Shown: piece after piece, positions 1-25,084 of the stretch
Position numbering within the stretch: position 1 is the stretch's first letter
Layout: each line of letters opens with the position of its first letter
IMG/VR virus record: IMGVR_UViG_2778261154_000008
Source: a virus
Lineage: Duplodnaviria; Heunggongvirae; Uroviricota; Caudoviricetes
Length of the DNA stretch: 25,084 nt
Reading direction: 5' to 3' (one strand)
Position numbers and translations under genes: made by a program
The notes under the pieces: model-generated
What the model was told of the DNA's origin: nothing
The model's database searches: none
The model's input: only the letters and a program-made list of their open reading frames with translations

Positions 1-868
1 GGGCATCAAAGTTTCCGTAGTCTGACGGTGTTACCCGTCCTGTAACGTTTACAGCTTTATTACTCTGGATACTGCCACTCTGAAAACGCAACACATGCAC
101 GCTATTGGCATAAACATCCAGCAGGCCATCACCATTCTGTTTAAATCCGGTGTCATTATCACCAAGAACAATTGAATTCCCCCCCAGGGCGTTCTGAACG
201 CCGATACCCAGCGCACCATTGACCTGCGAACCACCGCCAACAGACACTTTATGCGACATGGATATTTCACCCGTCCGCAGATTAATGGTGAACGGGCGCA
301 GGGGACCAATATCGCCATTCTCGCCCTGACCTTCACTGGTAGGGATAAGGTGCAGGCACTCTTCCGAACGACGAAAAATCAGGCCAAAAGCTTCGTTGAA
401 AATCCTCAGCGCATTAACACCACGGATTTTCAGCTCTCCTGTCATCGTGCCGCCTGATTGTTTTATGACTTTCAGTGCATCTGCAAAATCTGTTGCACTC
501 TCTTTGCCGAGAATACCGCGCACAAAAGCACTGAGCGGCGTTAATGCCATTGTGTCTTTGCCGGTAAAATACGGGAACATATTATTCTGACCGGTTAATC
601 CGGCAATAGCCCCGGCTGAACCACTGTTCGTAATAAACAGCTTTTTCAGCGCCGTCATAATCTGGTTGGTTGTGTTTTTATCCGGTTTGATATTTGCCTG
701 CCGGAGTATTTCCAGTAATTCAGACTGAATAATATTAAACCAGTCCGGCCCCGGATAGGTGGGCGGAATACCGTTCCCGCCTTCGGTGAAATAAAGCGTT
801 GTTTTGCTTAATTCTGCCGCGACAGGTGGCATTACCGGCACACCCGTCGGGTTATCCACATAAAACAT
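1..868 (-). CDS. Tail fibre protein, N-terminal part (Mu S / P2 H-like position); partial, continues past the window start
   Basis: ATG at 868 lies 3 nt after the upstream stop with GGAG upstream. My own translation (MFYVDNPTGVPVMPPVAAELSKTTLYFTEGG...GALGIGVQNALGG...) stays open to position 1. Gly/Asn/Ser-rich fibre-like composition; lower GC than neighbouring tail genes. Confidence 0.65.
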   Translation of the reverse strand, partial: MFYVDNPTGVPVMPPVAAELSKTTLYFTEGGNGIPPTYPGPDWFNIIQSELLEILRQANIKPDKNTTNQIMTALKKLFITNSGSAGAIAGLTGQNNMFPYFTGKDTMALTPLSAFVRGILGKESATDFADALKVIKQSGGTMTGELKIRGVNALRIFNEAFGLIFRRSEECLHLIPTSEGQGENGDIGPLRPFTINLRTGEISMSHKVSVGGGSQVNGALGIGVQNALGGNSIVLGDNDTGFKQNGDGLLDVYANSVHVLRFQSGSIQSNKAVNVTGRVTPSDYGNFDA

Positions 869-5827: not shown

Positions 5828-7620
5828 TAACCCTGCTCCACGCTGGTGACGCCAGCCTGCGCACTGAGTCTGACGCCGGGTTGATCCACTCTGACGCTTT
5901 TCACGCGGGCATCACCTTCCACCACCACACGGATTTCCCCCTGCAATTGTTGCGGAAGGAAAGGATAATTCTGAGTGGGTTGCATACCAGCCCACGGTCG
6001 CGGGTCGGCAATATTCTTTTTTTCCAGAGAGTTAAACCAGTTCCTGATATCCGTCCATACCGTCGGGCGGTTGTTGTTTTCCTGAACCCGTGCGATTAAC
6101 GCATCTGCTTCCTCTTTGTTCTTAGGGAAAGCAGAGAGCACCATGTCAAGGAGATTAAATCCTGATGCAGTTTGTGGTGTAACCAGCGCTGGCGTCTTTG
6201 GCCCACGTGGGTTGCGGGAGTTACGGGGATTGCGCGATGAATCCGGCGCATCCGGCAGACCGCCGGTATTACCCTTCATCCCGCCACTGCCCATATTGAC
6301 CACATAAACCGGCATCACACCGGAGCCGAAAACATCCGTAATGCTGCCGGGTATCCCTTTGCCTTTCCCTTTGGGATTCATGATGTCGTGGATGGTTTTA
6401 CCGAACTGATACGTCTTTCTGATGGCGATAATGCCGCCCAGCGCGATCGCCATATATTTACCGACCTGCAACCAGTTCTGGGCAGTGTTCTGGTCCACGC
6501 TGTTGAGCGCATCCGCCAGGTCCTGAACGGGCTTTGCCAGTTGCCCTTCAGCAAAACGTTGCCATTCGTTATTCAGTGACTGTATTGCGGCATTAAAGCC
6601 TTCGGCATTGGTCTGTGCGGCCTTTTGCGTGGAACCCAGCTCAATCGTGCCGTAAATCATTTGTTCCATCAGTTGCCGGTTTTCAGGGTTAAGCAGCGCC
6701 TTAATCCCCTGCATTCCGGTCAGATCAAACACATCCTGAAGTTTCAGCGGGTCGTATTTGGCCCGTTTAAGGATTTCCATCATCAGCTCATAGGGCTTTT
6801 TGATGTCTTTTGTGCCTTTGACAAAAACGTCAATGCCGTTTTTTTTCAGGAACTCGATGTTCTTTTTGTCCGACAGGGAAGCATACATGGCCTGAATACT
6901 GGTTACCGTCTCATCAATGCTGCCTTTGTTTTTGGCGAACACCTGAGCAAATGCCCCCATCTGGGCAATGGCTTCCGGTCCCTGATCCTGAATGATGGAA
7001 AACAGTTTCGGGGCAGCGCGGGCAACATCGGCAACGCTTACAGACCCCACTGCGAACTGCGAATACAGCCTGTCCATCATGTTATTGACCGCATCAGCAC
7101 CCCGGACGTTTTTTTCCCAGAACTGGGCCATCAGCCCGGCTGCAACCTGTCCGTCAACACCGAACGCCTGCATCATCAACCCCATGTTGCGGAGGTTGTC
7201 CACCACATACTGATAATCACCGGTTTTCCCCAGAAGTTCGCTGGCCCCCTGACCAAGCGCAGAAGCATCAATACGAATATCTTTCTGGTTCGATACATCC
7301 CTGATTTTGTCGTGAAGCGTCTTTACCTGTTCAGTGGTTAACTGGGCATCCGTACCCATCCGGCGCATCTGCGCATCAAAATCGGCAACCTGTTTGATGG
7401 TAAGACTACTGCCAAGCCCGGCTATCATTGCCGTGTAGCGGTTACCAAGCGTATCAAGGCCGCGTCCTGCGGCCTCCGTTGTGGCTTTGACAAGGCGCAT
7501 GGCCTTCTGGTTGTTCCGGGCGAACTGCGACATGTTTGCGCCGTACTGCCGGGCTTTGGCGGTCAGGTTCCCGGCAAGGTTGATCATGATTTCCGTGCTG
7601 AGACGGTTACCTGTTGCCAT
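5827..7620 (-). CDS. Tail tape measure protein
   Basis: 597-aa ORF, largely helical-looking with a Gly/Pro/Asn-rich C-terminal tract; sits between the chaperone and DNA circulation genes. Confidence 0.8.
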   Translation of the reverse strand: MATGNRLSTEIMINLAGNLTAKARQYGANMSQFARNNQKAMRLVKATTEAAGRGLDTLGNRYTAMIAGLGSSLTIKQVADFDAQMRRMGTDAQLTTEQVKTLHDKIRDVSNQKDIRIDASALGQGASELLGKTGDYQYVVDNLRNMGLMMQAFGVDGQVAAGLMAQFWEKNVRGADAVNNMMDRLYSQFAVGSVSVADVARAAPKLFSIIQDQGPEAIAQMGAFAQVFAKNKGSIDETVTSIQAMYASLSDKKNIEFLKKNGIDVFVKGTKDIKKPYELMMEILKRAKYDPLKLQDVFDLTGMQGIKALLNPENRQLMEQMIYGTIELGSTQKAAQTNAEGFNAAIQSLNNEWQRFAEGQLAKPVQDLADALNSVDQNTAQNWLQVGKYMAIALGGIIAIRKTYQFGKTIHDIMNPKGKGKGIPGSITDVFGSGVMPVYVVNMGSGGMKGNTGGLPDAPDSSRNPRNSRNPRGPKTPALVTPQTASGFNLLDMVLSAFPKNKEEADALIARVQENNNRPTVWTDIRNWFNSLEKKNIADPRPWAGMQPTQNYPFLPQQLQGEIRVVVEGDARVKSVRVDQPGVRLSAQAGVTSVEQG

Positions 7621-8469: not shown

Positions 8470-9945
8470 TTAAAGCTTGAACTGAATCAGGCCTGCCAGC
8501 ACACGCAGCTGGTTCACCAGATTCGGGTGGCAGATAAAGTTCAGGCGGTTTTTATCACTGCTGTCACGTGTCACCTGAAGCGTGTCTTTGTAATCGCTGA
8601 AGTTCTCCACAAGGCCCGCCGGGAGAAGTTCGGTCTGGCAGATATCCAGCAGTTCTGCGGTGCACAGCTTCGGCGTCATCACCGGCTGCCCCGCATCCAG
8701 CGAGTCCAGCACGTCATCATCCGCCAGCTTGTGGCGCGGATAACGGTTCGTGAAACGGTTCTTGATGATGTAACGGATACGGCCCAGCGTGGCGGGTGAC
8801 TGCACATCCAGGTACGACACATCCGCATCACCGTACTGGTTAACCCGGTACATGGTGATTTCGCGCTCGATGCAGACGTTATCCCCGGCGTCCACCATGT
8901 GCGTGGCAATGCCGTCATGCAGCAGCAGATTACGCTCCGGCATATCCCAGCGAACATTACGCGCAGGCGGCAGAATGCCGGTCAGGACCAGCGTCTGAAG
9001 CGGTCGCGCCGGGTCAATGGCAAGGTGATACGCTGCCGTTGCGCCGTATGACGCGGCCCACATCCACGCCGGGTGCGGTGACAGGTTGGTGCCGATACAG
9101 CTAATCAGCCAGTCATTGCGGGTTTCACCAAACGTGCCGGTTTCCCCGTGTGTGCCACGAAACGCCGTCCACAGCTGCGCTTCCATCATTTTGAGCGGCC
9201 CCCAGCGGTTCAGCAGTTCATCACGCAGGGTGTTCAGGCTTTTCGTGTCGGTGAACGGGGCGATGATATCGGTAAACCACTCCGGGCCGATGGCCGCAAC
9301 GGCGTCTGCCATTTCCGGTGTCCCGGTGCCGCCGGTAAACGCGGTTGCGGTCACCTTCACACCTGCCGGGAAGGCTTCACCGGTGTGGTAGTTCAGGCGA
9401 ACGTCGGCACCGTTGCCGGTGACGCCGTGCCAGTTCACGGTCAGCTCCACGGTATCCGTGGCATCATCCTTCACCGCAGCGGCCACCTGCGTGGCAGGCT
9501 TTTTCGTCACCGCATCAGCAATGGCTTTTGCAATGTTTTCCTTCGTATCCCCGGCGCTCACGCTCACCTGAACGGACACACCGTTAATCAGCAGTGCCAC
9601 CGTTCCGGCTTCGGTCGCTGTACCCAGCACGGTCAGCGTGGCTTTTGCGGCAGCGCCTTCAGGAGCGGCAACCGGCATCGCCCAGGTTTCCGTGTACGTG
9701 TTGGCACGACGCAGCATTTTGAGCATTTCAGCCAGCATCGACCCTTTGCCATAAAGCTGGTCTGCCTGGCTGTCACTGGTGATGCGGGTCAGTGACAGGG
9801 CGTCTGCGCTGCCGGACGATACCGCATGGCCCATGACCAGAATTTTTCGGCTTTGCGCGGATGCACCCTCCAGCGCCTGTGAATTGTCGATATCGATCCA
9901 GACAAGCGGGACGCGGATATCATCAGGAATGGAACCCAGCGACAT
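8470..9945 (-). CDS. Contractile tail sheath protein (Mu L-like)
   Basis: 491-aa ORF with the size and composition of a sheath protein, followed by the tube gene. Confidence 0.85.
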   Translation of the reverse strand: MSLGSIPDDIRVPLVWIDIDNSQALEGASAQSRKILVMGHAVSSGSADALSLTRITSDSQADQLYGKGSMLAEMLKMLRRANTYTETWAMPVAAPEGAAAKATLTVLGTATEAGTVALLINGVSVQVSVSAGDTKENIAKAIADAVTKKPATQVAAAVKDDATDTVELTVNWHGVTGNGADVRLNYHTGEAFPAGVKVTATAFTGGTGTPEMADAVAAIGPEWFTDIIAPFTDTKSLNTLRDELLNRWGPLKMMEAQLWTAFRGTHGETGTFGETRNDWLISCIGTNLSPHPAWMWAASYGATAAYHLAIDPARPLQTLVLTGILPPARNVRWDMPERNLLLHDGIATHMVDAGDNVCIEREITMYRVNQYGDADVSYLDVQSPATLGRIRYIIKNRFTNRYPRHKLADDDVLDSLDAGQPVMTPKLCTAELLDICQTELLPAGLVENFSDYKDTLQVTRDSSDKNRLNFICHPNLVNQLRVLAGLIQFKL

Positions 9946-10145
9946 TATTTTTTCCCTCTGGTTTTGTTGTTATTTTTCGGAAGTGTGGTTATTTCCACAT
10001 CTCCCTCGGCTTCACGGCGCAGCCAGTAAGCGCAGACGTTGAGACGTTCCCCTTCCGGGGATAAATGTGCGCCATCCGGTTTACGGACACGGACGTTTTC
10101 CCGCGCTGGCTTAATCAGTTTCTGTTCCATCGTCACCCCGTACAT
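9945..10145 (-). CDS. Small conserved Mu-like protein (gp38-like position)
   Basis: 66-aa basic ORF whose stop overlaps the sheath start by 1 nt; start may be the internal Met. Confidence 0.4.
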   Translation of the reverse strand: MYGVTMEQKLIKPARENVRVRKPDGAHLSPEGERLNVCAYWLRREAEGDVEITTLPKNNNKTRGKK

Positions 10146-21656: not shown

Positions 21657-21667
21657 AAAAGCACCTG

Positions 21668-21696
21668 TGAAGCAGATTTAAACGTGGTCTGCTTCA
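21668..21696 (-). promoter_or_regulatory. 9-bp perfect inverted repeat in the endolysin leader, immediately upstream of its RBS
   Basis: tgaagcaga-N11-tctgcttca; on the mRNA the hairpin ends 12 nt before the ATG, next to AGGUG. Shares the TGAAGC motif with the 26-bp element. Confidence 0.4.
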
Positions 21697-21711
21697 TGGT
21701 GCCGGAGGCAT

Positions 21712-21737
21712 AAAAAAAGCCGGATTTACCGGCTTCA
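21712..21737 (-). terminator. Hairpin plus T-tract between the Mor/C gene and the lysis operon: intrinsic terminator and/or late-promoter activator site (copy 2 of a 26-bp repeat)
   Basis: Minus-strand RNA reads UGAAGCCGG-UAAAU-CCGGCUU-UUUUUUA: 7-bp GC-rich stem, 5-nt loop, U7. Begins 4 nt after the Mor/C stop and lies ~55 nt upstream of the endolysin ATG. Confidence 0.55.
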
Positions 21738-21741
21738 TTGA

Positions 21742-22191
21742 TTAAGGACGTCGTGGCGGACGACGAACGGGGTGAGGCAGGTTCGGGGAGTGGTAAAACA
21801 AATCCGGCTGGTATTTATTACACTCCAGACGCCGCATCCGCTTGATGGCCTTGTAGACGGTTTTATACGTCACCCCGTAACGCTGAACCAGTTCAGGAAT
21901 ATTATGGCCGTTAAAATCACGCCAGATACGCATATCCCGGACAAGATTCTCCAGAATATTCCCCCTCGGAACATAAACCTGCATCCCGCCGATATAGCGA
22001 CAAATCGCCACAACCAGCTCAAGGGAATGGGCAGGGTCTGCGCCAATCCGGGCCAGCTCTTTACGCAGCAGTGCGTTCAGTTCAGAAAGTAACGCCGGAT
22101 AAGCCGTGTTTTCCTGGTAATCGTTAAGGTATTCCAGAACGCTGTCGTCCCGGAAGTCTTCGAATAAATCCTGCTCTTTCATCTGTTTCAT
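21742..22191 (-). CDS. Mor/C-family transcriptional activator of middle/late genes
   Basis: 149-aa ORF; the segment DPAHSLELVVAICRYIGGMQVYVPRG...YGVTYKTVYKAIKRMRR closely resembles the Mu Mor/C family as I recall it; ATGA overlap with gemA; sits directly upstream of the lysis operon. Confidence 0.75.
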   Translation of the reverse strand: MKQMKEQDLFEDFRDDSVLEYLNDYQENTAYPALLSELNALLRKELARIGADPAHSLELVVAICRYIGGMQVYVPRGNILENLVRDMRIWRDFNGHNIPELVQRYGVTYKTVYKAIKRMRRLECNKYQPDLFYHSPNLPHPVRRPPRRP

Positions 22192-22739
22192 ACAGCAATT
22201 CTCCCGCTGTTTCGTGCGCGGGCATATGCACTGGTCAGTGCATCATAGCCGCGCAGCTTCCGCCCGGTTTCGCTCACAGGTAAAGGCACACCATGTCGGG
22301 CAAAGGCTTCCCGGATGCAGCGCATATGCCACTGTTTGAGCGTTTCGAGCACAACATGCAACGATTCCCCGTGACACCAGGCCAGCGTGGAAACACCCTG
22401 ACCGCCATTACGTCTGACCGTCAGGCGTTCAACGTATTTGTCCAGCGCAGCGTCGCTGATATCGGAGACGAAACCATCAAGGAACATCTGCTGCCAGATT
22501 TTATAAATCTTCTCGCGCGGTGTGACATGCCCCTTAAAGCGACGGCGGGGATGTTTTTTCTGCTTCTTAAAACCGCGCTCTTTCATGGCATCGAGCACAC
22601 GTTCCAGTTGTGCAACGGACAGCTCGCGGCAACTGGTTTTGCCCGTGTGCTGCACCAGAAAGGCGCGGTAAGTGTCATCGTCGAGTTGTAGATCACGACG
22701 GGCGACATGAATTAATTTAATCAGGGATGTGCGATTCAT
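22188..22739 (-). CDS. gemA: GemA-like regulatory protein (Mu gp16, DUF1018-type)
   Basis: Start taken at ATG 22739 (MNRTSLIKLIHVARRDLQLDDDTYRAF...) with GGAGG 8 nt upstream, rather than the longer listed form from 22793. Confidence 0.7.
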   Translation of the reverse strand: MNRTSLIKLIHVARRDLQLDDDTYRAFLVQHTGKTSCRELSVAQLERVLDAMKERGFKKQKKHPRRRFKGHVTPREKIYKIWQQMFLDGFVSDISDAALDKYVERLTVRRNGGQGVSTLAWCHGESLHVVLETLKQWHMRCIREAFARHGVPLPVSETGRKLRGYDALTSAYARARNSGRIAV

Positions 22740-23079: not shown

Positions 23080-23365
23080 GAATATCTTTATTTGATAGTC
23101 CCAGCCTGCGACGAATGTATTCCTCGCGGGCTGCTTCATTTTGTAGCGCCACGGCAGCTTCCACCTGGTTCATTTCACGGTTGATAATGCTCCGGACTTC
23201 TCTGGCGGTGAGGTCATGCTCAATACCATATTTAACAATATCATGCATACGTTCCAGCATCCTTAAATTAGCCATGACGTCATCAATATTAACTGGTGTG
23301 AATTTCATTTCTTTATTCTCTGGTTTATTCATTTCGTAATACCTCTTCGCAATAAAAGATTTCAT
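23018..23365 (-). CDS. Hypothetical 115-aa protein, lower-GC accessory gene
   Basis: ATG 23365 overlaps the stop of the upstream small ORF (ATGA); largely helical-looking; hand-counted GC ~43% over 23101-23340. Confidence 0.5.
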   Translation of the reverse strand: MKSFIAKRYYEMNKPENKEMKFTPVNIDDVMANLRMLERMHDIVKYGIEHDLTAREVRSIINREMNQVEAAVALQNEAAREEYIRRRLGLSNKDILTDAQMAEAFDIHQNLGLTN

Positions 23366-23508
23366 TGGGATAACGTTTTTGTATGCGCTCCATCACCTGC
23401 ATACATGTCTGCTCTGTGGGCCAGATTTTTTTCCGTTACCGGAATGGCATCGCAGGCATCATTTCCGCAGGTGCCAACCAGCAGGACAAAGCCAGTTGAC
23501 TTAATCAT
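23362..23508 (-). CDS. Hypothetical small Cys-containing protein (48 aa)
   Basis: Start taken at the internal ATG 23508 (MIKSTGFVLLVGTCGNDACD...) with AGGAAA upstream; stop overlaps the next start. The longer listed form would overlap the upstream gene by ~100 nt. Confidence 0.3.
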   Translation of the reverse strand: MIKSTGFVLLVGTCGNDACDAIPVTEKNLAHRADMYAGDGAHTKTLSQ

Positions 23509-24040
23509 GCTCGCTGATTTCCTGTGTTTCCGCCGGAACCGGTGAATAATCAAGAATGAGATAGCGCAGGACGTGGTCGGTGATATTCCAGCCACTGGAG
23601 CCACAAATAAAACGACCCAGCCGGATATCGATATAAGCCATCACAAAACGGGGCATTCCCTGTTTACACATCTCGTCATCCACTTCAGCAACGATGTAAA
23701 CCGACTCGCAGGTCAGTACGCCTGTCGCAAATTCTTTTGCCAGTGCCGGAATGGCATTGCCTTCCAGCCAGGGCAAAGAGCGGCGGAACGTGCACCATTG
23801 CGCACCATCAACATCGGGGTGCTCCGTTGAATTTCGCCCGGCAGGCGGCTCTGCCCGGGAGCGCGGAACGTCGTAAAAGCCGTTCAGTTCAGTCAGCACT
23901 CCGGCATCAACCGCATCACGCAGGAAATACACCATTGCAGAGACCGGCATCCTCATTTTGTCCGCCAGAACACCACAGGTCAGACGTCCGTAAGCCCGTA
24001 ATAATGTGCTGACACCGTTCAGAACTTTTGCATCAATCAC
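23501..24040 (-). CDS. Hypothetical 179-aa protein, early/accessory region
   Basis: GTG start at 24040 with GGAGG 7 nt upstream, 3 nt after the upstream stop; no family recognised. Confidence 0.5.
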   Translation of the reverse strand: MIDAKVLNGVSTLLRAYGRLTCGVLADKMRMPVSAMVYFLRDAVDAGVLTELNGFYDVPRSRAEPPAGRNSTEHPDVDGAQWCTFRRSLPWLEGNAIPALAKEFATGVLTCESVYIVAEVDDEMCKQGMPRFVMAYIDIRLGRFICGSSGWNITDHVLRYLILDYSPVPAETQEISEHD

Positions 24041-24043
24041 CGG

Positions 24044-24548
24044 TTATTCCTCCGTCAGTGCCACAAATTCAGAATGTTTAATGCGCTGGCATTCGGCAGG
24101 AACCGGTCCCTTAACCTCACCATCCAGCAGGCACACCTCAAACAAAATGCCGAATCCGTCACGGCTGTGGTGCATCGTCCAGACTGATTTGAGATCAAAC
24201 ATGTTGGGTACAACATCAACCCCGAGTTCATTACACAACCAGACCGGGAATGTGGGATATTTCCGGAGTTGCTCTTCATGTTCCTGAATAAGCGTCGCAT
24301 TGTTTCGGCCTTCCGGTGTTGTTATATCCGGTACAACGCCATAAAACTGAAATCCACCAATAAACAGTCCGTCTGATTTACCACGCCATAATTCCGGCGC
24401 TAATTGATTCATCCAGATACATTCAACCCGTTCATACCCTCTGTTACTGACAAGGGAAACACCGTCTGCGCCAAACGCACGCTGCAATGAGCAGATGATT
24501 TTGTCACGCTTAACAGAAACATCTTTCAGCCAGCGAATCGTATAACCG
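24044..24548 (-). pseudogene. Hypothetical early-region gene, probably 5'-truncated by the IS insertion
   Basis: The listed ORF runs to a GTG at 24574, but its first nine codons lie inside the IS3-family left end (which starts at 24549), so the native N-terminus appears to be missing. An internal Met at ~24412 could still give a shorter product. Confidence 0.45.
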
Positions 24549-24580
24549 TGAGGTAGCCTGAGTTTAACGGACACTCCTTC
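24549..24580. repeat. Left terminal inverted repeat of the IS3-family element (approximate extent)
   Basis: Begins with TG at 24549; the right end is outside the window, so the IR length cannot be confirmed. Confidence 0.45.
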
Positions 24581-24612
24581 CTGAAATAGAATGGCATCAG
24601 AAGGAGCTAATA

Positions 24613-24915
24613 ATGAGCAGAAAAACCCAACGTTACTCTAAAGAGTTCAAAGCCGAAGCTGTCAGAACGGTTCTTGAAAATCAACTTTCGATCAGTGAAG
24701 GCGCTTCCCGATTATCCCTTCCTGAAGGCACTTTAGGACAATGGGTTACCGCCGCCAGAAAAGGGCTCGGTACTCCTGGTTCCCGCACGGTGGCTGAACT
24801 GGAATCTGAAATTCTGCAACTGCGTAAGGCGTTAAATGAAGCTCGCCTTGAGCGAGATATATTAAAAAAAGCAACAGCGTATTTTGCACAGGAGTCGCTG
24901 AAAAATACGCGTTAA
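24613..24915 (+). CDS. IS3-family transposase OrfA (HTH / leucine-zipper subunit)
   Basis: 100-aa ORF MSRKTQRYSKEFKAEAVRTVLENQLSISEGASRLSLPEGTLGQWV... with a helix-turn-helix and a C-terminal heptad region typical of IS3 OrfA. Confidence 0.9.
   Translation: MSRKTQRYSKEFKAEAVRTVLENQLSISEGASRLSLPEGTLGQWVTAARKGLGTPGSRTVAELESEILQLRKALNEARLERDILKKATAYFAQESLKNTR
24864..24871 (+). promoter_or_regulatory. Candidate -1 programmed frameshift site of the IS (A7-G slippery run)
   Basis: AAAAAAAG sits in the orfA/orfB overlap (orfA codons TTA AAA AAA GCA); IS3-family elements classically shift on A6G-type motifs. Confidence 0.55.
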
Positions 24916-25084
24916 TCGAACAATGGCGACAACAATTTCCCATTGAAGCGATGTGTCAGGTATTTGGTGTATCCAGGAGCGGTTATTACAACTGGGTACA
25001 GCATGAACCCTCAGACAGAAAACAAAGTGATGAGCGGCTAAAACTGGAGATTAAGGTGGCACATATCCGCACTCGCGAAACATA
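24872..25084 (+). CDS. IS3-family transposase OrfB, N-terminal part (made as an OrfAB fusion by -1 frameshift); partial
   Basis: -1 frame relative to orfA, open to the window end; my translation reads LIEQWRQQFPIEAMCQVFGVSRSGYYNWVQHEPSDRKQSDERLKLEIKVAHIRTRET, typical of IS3 OrfB N-termini. Exact fusion point not determinable by eye. Confidence 0.75.

What the first reader, a model, noticed from the sequence alone, without database searches (positions are those of the whole stretch)
24549..25084. IS3-family (IS600-like) insertion truncates the outermost prophage gene; prophage probably defective
The IS terminus (TGAGGTAGCC...) begins at 24549, inside the 5' end of the minus-strand gene at 24044-24574, whose listed GTG start and first nine codons are IS sequence. 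A Mu-like repressor, ner and the A/B transposase genes would be expected to the right of this point; they are either displaced by the full IS (~1.3 kb) or deleted. Either way the insertion uncouples the accessory cassette from its native upstream promoter and may place it under IS-derived outward transcription.
Basis: partly seen in the sequence, partly recalled or inferred. Interest (0 to 1): 0.5.

Follow-up and report, generated by a model that had tools for sequence, protein, structure and literature searches.

The report
IS600 insertion inside Mu-like prophage
A common Shigella/E. coli jumping gene (IS600) has landed inside a small accessory gene in the middle of the early operon of an otherwise complete Mu-like prophage. 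This is an ordinary event that may silence the phage's late-gene activator but deletes nothing.

Summary
Window 24549-25084 is the first 536 nt of IS600, 100% identical to annotated copies, and the element's end is exactly at 24549. It cuts the minus-strand DUF5420 gene after codon 15, and the listed GTG start is IS sequence.

- The window is a whole contig (NJNE01000068.1) that stops inside the repeat.
- The partner contig of the same assembly (NJNE01000126.1) carries the other IS600 end, the same 3-bp target duplication (CCG), and the missing 15 codons.
- That contig also carries intact gam, kil, B (316 aa), A (698 aa), ner and repressor, followed by the prophage end in astE.
- A near-identical long-read genome shows one 1,264-bp IS600 between the two parts.

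So this is a simple insertion. Nothing is deleted, and the gene is not the outermost one: 5.96 kb of prophage lies beyond it. All 33 complete prophage genes in the window are intact.

Whether the prophage is defective is unproven. The plausible route is polarity on the downstream early genes gemA and mor. No outward promoter was found at the IS end. This is an ordinary, already known kind of event and of low interest.

The parts
24549..25084 (+). Left 536 nt of IS600 (IS3 family), cut off by the end of the contig
   Evidence: 100% identical to annotated IS600 copies. The full reference copy is 1,264 bp (L003 1501-2764).
24549..24575 (+). IS600 left terminal inverted repeat (IRL), TGAGGTAGCC...; 19 of 27 positions match the right end
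   Evidence: Ends compared. The flanking base varies among 8 copies.
24546..24548 (.). CCG, the left copy of the 3-bp target-site duplication
   Evidence: The empty site in FDAARGOS_943 has one CCG. The second copy abuts the IS right end on partner contig L008 at 7114-7116 (CGG in that orientation) and in L004 at 8760-8762 / 10027-10029.
24564..24592 (+). Inward-facing sigma-70-like site (TTAACG-17-TAGAAT), the likely transposase promoter
   Evidence: It is the only promoter-like site found on either strand of IS600.
24613..24915 (+). IS600 orfA (100 aa, HTH_Tnp_1)
   Evidence: Pfam PF01527, E = 1.5e-20; ORF list.
24864..24871 (+). AAAAAAAG slippery motif for the -1 programmed frameshift into orfB
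   Evidence: Read from the sequence. RefSeq copies are annotated 'programmed frameshift'.
24867..25084 (+). 5' part of orfB in the -1 frame, open to the end of the window
   Evidence: Translation has no stop. The complete orfB in the sister genome has rve domains.
24044..24548 (-). Phage-derived 3' part of the DUF5420 gene (last base of codon 15 (24548), codons 16-182 and the stop). It is a homologue of SfMu gp11 and belongs to phrog_2260; function unknown
   Evidence: Alignment to the intact 182-aa gene; PHROG hit E = 6e-56; SfMu annotation.
24044..24574 (-). Chimeric ORF (176 aa) that gene callers report. Its GTG and first 8 2/3 codons come from IRL. The AGGAG lies only 1 nt from the GTG
   Evidence: The exact protein is seen on only two contigs.
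23501..24040 (-). Mu gp11-like gene, the first intact gene downstream of the IS in the early operon
   Evidence: Pfam Gp11_C, E = 3e-39.
22188..22739 (-). gemA homologue, downstream of the IS
   Evidence: Pfam GemA, E = 7e-33; annotated as a gp16 family protein.
21742..22191 (-). mor homologue, the only Mor/C-family activator seen in this prophage and the last gene of the presumed early operon
   Evidence: Pfam Mor, E = 4e-30. No second Mor/C hit appears among the called genes.
21716..21736 (-). Terminator-like hairpin plus T-run just after mor, the presumed end of the early operon

Best explanation
SHOWN. A single copy of IS600 (1,264 bp, IS3 family) transposed into the early operon of a 34.7-kb Mu-like transposable prophage that sits in the host gene astE of an E. 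coli / EIEC-type strain.
- It entered after codon 15 of a 182-aa accessory gene (DUF5420, a homologue of SfMu gp11) and made a 3-bp CCG duplication.
- Its transposase genes point against phage early transcription.
- Repressor, ner, A, B, kil, three small genes and gam lie intact on the far side of the IS.
- All late genes present in the window are intact.
- The window ends inside the IS only because the short-read assembly broke at this multicopy repeat.

INFERRED.
- DUF5420 is knocked out. The native start now makes a 21-residue stub that stops 18 nt into the IS. The downstream chimeric ORF has no usable ribosome-binding spacing.
- Early transcripts from the repressor-controlled promoter must cross about 1.25 kb of untranslated antisense IS RNA to reach the gp11-like gene, gemA and mor. 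This is the classic situation for Rho-dependent polarity.
- In Mu, Mor is made from the early transcript and is required for the middle-to-late cascade. I put about 55% on the insertion strongly reducing virion production and lysis after induction, while A/B-driven transposition and Kil stay inducible.
For: IS identity and end:
- 100% identity to annotated IS600 over 536 nt.
- The end is fixed by 8 copies with different flanks.
- orfA, the A7G motif and an open orfB frame are present.

Empty site and intact gene: found in FDAARGOS_943 and SfMu.

Same-assembly partner contig NJNE01000126.1 (L008):
- It carries the IS600 right end, CGG, and the 15 missing codons.
- It then carries gam 174 aa, three small genes (95, 139 and 87 aa), kil, B 316 aa, A 698 aa, ner and c, followed by an astE fragment and an IS1 end.

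Sister long-read genome UGFN01000003.1:
- It has 0 mismatches to both contigs.
- It shows one IS600 at L004 8763-10026, flanked by CGG on both sides.
- Both prophage ends lie in astE.

Gene integrity: the window is colinear with the intact prophage over 24,549 nt with no gaps, and all 33 CDS are free of internal stops.

Operon context:
- gp11-like, GemA and Mor lie downstream on the same strand, with a terminator-like hairpin after mor.
- The stub peptide ends in TAG inside the IS, and the antisense strand has only short open stretches.
Against: - The functional part is untested. No intrinsic terminators above chance were found on the antisense strand of the IS (3 found against 1.4 +/- 1.4 expected).
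- Rho-dependent polarity cannot be predicted from sequence here.
- An internal promoter for gemA/mor cannot be excluded. There is one weak 9/12 site at 22526-22498.
- This phage's transposase is only about 25% identical to that of Mu/SfMu, so Mu regulation is an analogy.
- In the window's own assembly the IS interior is not assembled. Continuity across it rests on the matching duplication and on the sister genome.
Confidence: 0.9

Rival explanations
1. The insertion is functionally near-neutral for the phage. DUF5420 is dispensable, enough early transcription reads through the IS or starts at an internal promoter to make Mor, and the prophage stays fully inducible and productive.
For: - Every other gene is intact.
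- Terminator-like sites on the antisense strand of the IS are not above chance.
- There is a weak promoter-like site inside gemA.
- From my own knowledge of Mu, the region between B and mor is only 'semi-essential'.
- A 1.27-kb insert is probably within headful tolerance. This is an analogy with Mu and was not tested.
Against: - About 1.25 kb of untranslated RNA lies upstream of mor.
- From general knowledge, IS insertions in operons are classically polar.
Confidence: 0.4
2. One reading: the IS marks a deletion or rearrangement that removed the repressor, ner, A and B region, leaving a truncated remnant.
For: The window ends in the IS, so from the window alone this could not be excluded.
Against: - The partner contig of the same assembly holds the whole early region and the other IS end with the matching 3-bp duplication.
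- The sister genome is contiguous across one IS600.
- The prophage measures 34,715 bp without the IS against 34,716 bp in FDAARGOS_943.
Confidence: 0.02
3. The IS drives the downstream phage cassette (truncated DUF5420, gp11-like, gemA, mor) from an outward-facing IS promoter, independently of the phage repressor.
For: From general knowledge, some IS3-family elements carry outward -35 elements.
Against: - The end facing the phage genes is IRL.
- From knowledge of IS911/IS2/IS3, the known outward -35 of IS3-family elements is in IRR.
- No promoter-like site was found on that strand anywhere in IS600.
- Constitutive Mor would be expected to switch on lysis genes and be counter-selected. This is an inference.
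Confidence: 0.05
4. The junction is an assembly artefact, that is, a chimeric contig end.
For: Contig ends at repeats are error-prone.
Against: - The same junction and the same chimeric protein occur in an independent long-read assembly.
- The reciprocal junction with the duplicated CCG is on another contig of the same assembly.
Confidence: 0.01

Closest known systems
IS600 (IS3 family), expanded in Shigella and EIEC
   Same: 100% identical over the 536 nt present. It has the same ends (TGAGG...CCTCA), orfA/orfB with an A7G frameshift site, a 1,264-bp length and a 3-bp duplication. IS600 is one of five IS elements expanded in Shigella/EIEC and a common cause of gene inactivation (PMC7373316).
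   Different: Nothing about the element itself differs. Only the insertion site is particular to this strain: the exact chimeric protein is on 2 contigs, in assemblies with 0 mismatches between them over the regions compared.
Shigella phage SfMu (Muvirus), gene gp11 (DUF5420)
   Same: The interrupted gene matches SfMu gp11 along its whole length as read by eye (no identity was computed), and it sits in the same place, between gam and the gp11-like gene. The gam-to-gemA module is about 85% identical at the DNA level.
   Different: The rest of the prophage is not SfMu.
- Transposase A is about 25% identical and B about 41%.
- The ends read TATGAC...GCTTTA instead of TGTATTG....
- The late region has no close match among 50,697 phage records.
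- No separate C activator gene is seen.
Polar IS insertions in the phage Mu early region (the Mu 'X' mutants with IS1 in or near gene B; recalled from memory, not found in the searchable library)
   Same: An IS sits inside the repressor-controlled early operon and is expected to act by polarity on downstream early functions.
   Different: The X mutants lie upstream of kil and abolish host killing. Here the IS lies downstream of A, B, kil and gam. Those functions should therefore stay inducible, and only the gp11-like gene, gemA and mor are affected.
IS-'grounded' prophages, e.g. the IS-riddled Stx prophage of Shigella dysenteriae 1 (as reviewed in PMC6379469)
   Same: IS insertion into a prophage is a route to loss of productive induction.
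   Different: Here there is a single clean insertion with no secondary rearrangement, and loss of function is not demonstrated.

Membership tests
IS600 (IS3 family) | Near-identity of nucleotide sequence to reference IS600 | tested here: met
   100% over 536 nt to many RefSeq copies annotated as IS600.
IS600 (IS3 family) | Imperfect terminal inverted repeats starting 5'-TG and ending CA-3' | tested here: met
   IRL TGAGGTAGCC... starts at 24549. IRR ...GTACACCTCA is on partner contig L008 and in L004. 19 of 27 positions match.
IS600 (IS3 family) | orfA (HTH) and orfB (DDE/rve) joined by a -1 programmed frameshift at an A-rich slippery site | tested here: met
   orfA 24613-24915 hits HTH_Tnp_1. 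A7G is at 24864-24871 and the -1 frame is open to the window end. The full orfB with rve domains is in the sister genome. In the window itself orfB is cut off.
IS600 (IS3 family) | 3-bp (occasionally 4-bp) target-site duplication | tested here: met
   CCG is present on both sides and occurs once in the empty site. Other copies show GTT, AGT, GGG, CCG and CACG.
IS600 (IS3 family) | Full length about 1,264 bp at this site | tested here: met
   L004 8763-10026 is 1,264 bp in the sister genome. The interior is not assembled in the window's own genome.
Mu-like transposable prophage (context of the insertion) | DDE transposase with a Mu-transposase C-terminal domain plus a MuB-type AAA+ ATPase, next to divergent repressor/ner genes | tested here: met
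   Precomputed Pfam hits on L008: HTH_35 (ner), Mu-transpos_C (A, 698 aa), Phage-MuB_C (B, 316 aa).
Mu-like transposable prophage (context of the insertion) | Mu-type accessory and regulatory set (Kil, Gam, GemA, Mor, Com/Mom) and Mu-type head and tail genes | tested here: met
Mu-like transposable prophage (context of the insertion) | Integration by transposition at many unrelated sites | tested here: met
   The same ends are found in astE, in mobB and at other loci.
Muvirus (Mu, D108, SfMu) in the strict sense | Ends 5'-TG...CA-3' with a 5-bp target duplication, and close similarity of A to MuA | tested here: not met
   The ends read TA...TA. Three independent insertions show exact 4-bp duplications (TTCT, GAAA, ATCC). 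A is about 25% identical to SfMu A. It therefore works like Mu but is not a Muvirus member.

The most novel reading that the evidence does not exclude
The IS600 insertion may have made a 'half-grounded' transposable prophage. Repressor-controlled A/B transposition and Kil would stay inducible. The sole Mor-family activator, and with it all head, tail and lysis genes, would be cut off from the early promoter by polarity. The element would then behave as a 36-kb inducible replicative transposon or mutator rather than a phage.

The host element also belongs to an uncharacterised Mu-like lineage with TA...TA ends and 4-bp duplications.
Probability: 0.15. Interest if true: 0.3.

Novelty: already known. 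Interest (0 to 1): 0.08.

Why it matters
It matters little beyond annotation.
- It shows that a contig ending in an IS should not be read as the end of a prophage.
- The 'DUF5420 family protein' called here (WP_249546349.1) is an IS-phage chimera.
- The prophage of this strain is complete but interrupted.

If polarity on mor is real, the strain carries a prophage that can still transpose and kill on induction but cannot make particles. That would be relevant only to people working with this strain or with Mu-like prophage induction in Shigella/EIEC.

Tried and rejected
1. A junction-spanning search of 5,426 complete E. coli genomes found no record with this junction, only IS-free relatives.
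2. I first read the fragmented A, B and gam genes in the long-read sister genome as real decay supporting 'defective'. I rejected this for three reasons.
   - The 16 differences are all one-base indels with 0 mismatches against the Illumina contig of the window's own assembly.
   - They are private to that assembly.
   - Correcting only the indels gives proteins that exist exactly, at full length, in many genomes.
3. I tested whether those indels came from a decayed second Mu-like prophage (L007). They did not; only substitution patches are shared.
4. Function of DUF5420:
   - Pfam and NCBIfam gave no hit.
   - The PHROG family has unknown function.
   - There is no PDB relative.
   - The single-sequence AlphaFold model was useless, with pLDDT 32, so no fold search was run.
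   - I ran no further search on this side question.
I reached the partner contig through the corrected A protein instead.
6. A literature search for Mu X mutants and IS polarity in Mu found nothing citable in the library.
7. A search for reports of 4-bp duplications by Mu-like phages found none.

Full report
**What is at 24549-25084**

The sequence from 24549 (TGAGGTAGCCTGAGTTTAACGG...) to the end of the window is 100% identical over all 536 nt to many RefSeq copies annotated 'IS3-like element IS600 family transposase'. It hits 3,540 records in 3,265 of 5,426 complete E. coli genomes.

A complete reference copy (L003 1501-2764) is 1,264 bp, from TGAGGTAGCC to GTACACCTCA. In eight independent copies the common sequence always begins at this TGAGG, while the preceding base differs. 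Most copies are flanked by a 3-bp direct repeat: CCG, CCG, GTT, AGT, GGG, one 4-bp CACG, and one copy with none.

Inside the window the element has:
- an inward promoter-like site at 24564-24592;
- orfA at 24613-24915, a Pfam HTH_Tnp_1 match;
- the A7G slippery motif at 24864-24871;
- an orfB frame that is open to the last base.

**What was hit**

The minus-strand ORF 24044-24574 is a chimera. Its GTG and first 8 2/3 codons (MSVKLRLPH) are the reverse complement of the IS left end.

E. coli FDAARGOS_943 carries the same prophage without the IS. The window is colinear with it from 1 to 24549 at 99.84% identity with no gaps. There the gene is a 182-aa 'DUF5420 family protein' that starts MKAYAYFKLSDAAAN-GYTIRW. 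The IS therefore entered after codon 15.

The gene matches gp11 of Shigella phage SfMu along its length as far as I could read it by eye (no identity was computed), and lies between gam and a Mu gp11-like gene in both. Its function is unknown:
- it belongs to phrog_2260, a family of unknown function;
- it has no Pfam or NCBIfam hit in the copies searched;
- it has no PDB relative;
- a single-sequence structure prediction failed, with pLDDT 32.

**Where the window comes from and what lies beyond it**

The chimeric protein exists on only two contigs.
- One is NJNE01000068.1 of GCA_002467185.1. It is 25,084 bp long and is the window itself, so the window ends inside the IS because the assembly broke at a multicopy repeat.
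- The other is a 4.6-Mb contig of the long-read assembly GCA_900450175.1 (UGFN01000003.1, locus L004).

In L004 a single IS600 (8763-10026, 1,264 bp) is flanked on both sides by CGG (CCG in window orientation). On the far side it is preceded by ATGAAAGCATATGCTTATTTTAAACTGAGTGACGCAGCCGCTAA, which is the 15 missing codons. The empty site has one CCG. This is a textbook simple insertion with a 3-bp target duplication.

I then found the partner contig of the window's own assembly, NJNE01000126.1 (L008, 7,277 bp). It reads in this order:
- an IS1 end;
- an astE fragment;
- the prophage end;
- repressor (187 aa);
- ner (83 aa);
- A (698 aa);
- B (316 aa);
- kil;
- three small genes;
- gam (174 aa);
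- the 15-codon stub;
- CGG;
- the IS600 right end.

Nothing is deleted, and 5.96 kb of prophage lies beyond the IS. The interrupted gene is therefore not the outermost prophage gene.

**Is the prophage otherwise intact?**

- All 33 CDS that lie completely within the window have no internal stops and differ from their FDAARGOS_943 counterparts by 0-2 residues.
- The nine early genes on L008 have the same lengths as in FDAARGOS_943, with 43 substitutions and no gaps.
- In the sister genome the late end continues through the tail-fibre genes and mom into the other half of astE.
- Joining the two astE fragments rebuilds a 322-aa AstE with 321 of 322 residues identical to a reference.
- The prophage is 34,715 bp without the IS, against 34,716 bp in FDAARGOS_943.

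The long-read genome seemed to show A, B and gam broken into pieces. This is an assembly artefact, for three reasons.
- It differs from L008 by 0 mismatches and 16 one-base indels.
- The indels are private to that assembly.
- Removing them yields proteins that occur exactly, at full length, in many other genomes, including on L008 itself.

**Likely consequence**

All phage genes in the window are on the minus strand. Downstream of the IS lie the truncated DUF5420 gene, a gp11-like gene, small ORFs, gemA and mor. A terminator-like hairpin follows immediately after mor, at 21736-21716. This is the layout of the Mu early operon.

[quoted passage not shown] In this prophage Mor is the only Mor/C-family protein seen.

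The IS is oriented with its transposase genes against phage transcription. As a result:
- the native DUF5420 start now gives a 21-residue peptide that ends at a TAG 18 nt into the IS;
- the following ~1.25 kb has only short open stretches.

Untranslated RNA of this length is the classic substrate for Rho-dependent polarity. This rests on established knowledge and was not tested here. I therefore think it somewhat more likely than not (about 55%) that mor and the late genes are poorly induced, while A, B and kil, which lie upstream of the IS, remain inducible.

Against this reading:
- intrinsic-terminator-like sites on that strand are not above chance (3 against 1.4 +/- 1.4);
- an internal promoter cannot be excluded;
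- the analogy with Mu is loose, because this phage's transposase is only about 25% identical to that of SfMu.

The end that faces the phage genes is IRL, and the only promoter-like site in the whole IS points inward. The chimeric GTG has its AGGAG only 1 nt away, so its translation is doubtful. This last point is read from the sequence and is an inference.

**Comparison with what is known, and verdict**

IS600 is one of five IS elements that expanded in Shigella and EIEC and that commonly inactivate genes (PMC7373316). IS insertion is a recognised route to 'grounded' prophages (PMC6379469). This instance is a clean, strain-specific example: the two assemblies that carry it show 0 mismatches over the regions compared.

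The finding is an already known kind of event and of low interest.

Noticed in passing
L004 2425 / L016 15289; L006 8126 and 42841; L017 ~992 and ~15273: This Mu-like prophage lineage has ends reading 5'-TATGACTAGG...GCGCGCTTTA-3' (TA...TA, not Mu's TG...CA). Three independent insertions (astE, the FDAARGOS_943 site, mobB) show exact 4-bp duplications (TTCT, GAAA, ATCC) rather than Mu's 5 bp. Its transposase is only about 25% identical to SfMu A. One literature search found no report of this.
   Followed up: partly
L004 4872-8473 (UGFN01000003.1): The long-read NCTC assembly has 16 one-base indels in 7.3 kb of the early region, against only 2 in 11.5 kb of the late region, and 0 mismatches in both. 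These create false pseudogenes of A, B and gam. The uneven density of errors is unexplained.
   Followed up: partly
window 1-449: The left end of the contig lies inside a tail-fibre gene. Its first 449 nt are about 89% identical to tail-fibre genes of phiP27 and Rac-SA53. A shared module of this kind probably broke the assembly.
   Followed up: partly
window 1-22240: The late region has no close relative among 50,697 deposited phage genomes. The best match is patchy, 73.6% to Klebsiella phage Kp4866-3. Only the gam-to-gemA module is SfMu-like (about 85%). The prophage is a mosaic that is common in E. coli/Shigella genomes but seems uncharacterised as a phage.
   Followed up: partly
L008 1-~90 and L004 983-1680: An IS1 copy sits about 750 bp outside the repressor end of the prophage, next to the astE fragment. 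It forms the other end of the partner contig.
   Followed up: no
L007 (JAQLTH010000004.1, GCA_036577685.1): Another E. coli genome carries a heavily decayed Mu-like prophage, 87-95% identical with many indels. Two substitution patches of the present prophage (B N-terminus at L004 5958-6068, and 7394-7460) carry the L007 alleles rather than the FDAARGOS_943 alleles. This suggests recombination between Mu-like prophages.
   Followed up: partly
L003 1498-1500/2765-2767; L006 6257-6259/7524-7526; window 24546-24548: Three of the eight IS600 copies inspected have the same target duplication, CCG. This may be a mild target preference or chance.
   Followed up: no
L001 7045-7593 (E. coli VL40): In strain VL40 the same DUF5420 gene is annotated as two separate ORFs (7045-7239 and 7405-7593). 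This is either an independent disruption or an assembly error.
   Followed up: no
window ~23325-23508 (L006 35283-35466): A small early-region ORF between the gp11-like gene and the 115-aa ORF is annotated 'frameshifted' in both IS-free relatives. This small gene is probably already a pseudogene across the lineage.
   Followed up: no
window 21657-21741: No separate C-type late activator gene lies between mor and the lysozyme gene, unlike in Mu and SfMu. The single Mor-family protein may control all late genes in this lineage.
   Followed up: no
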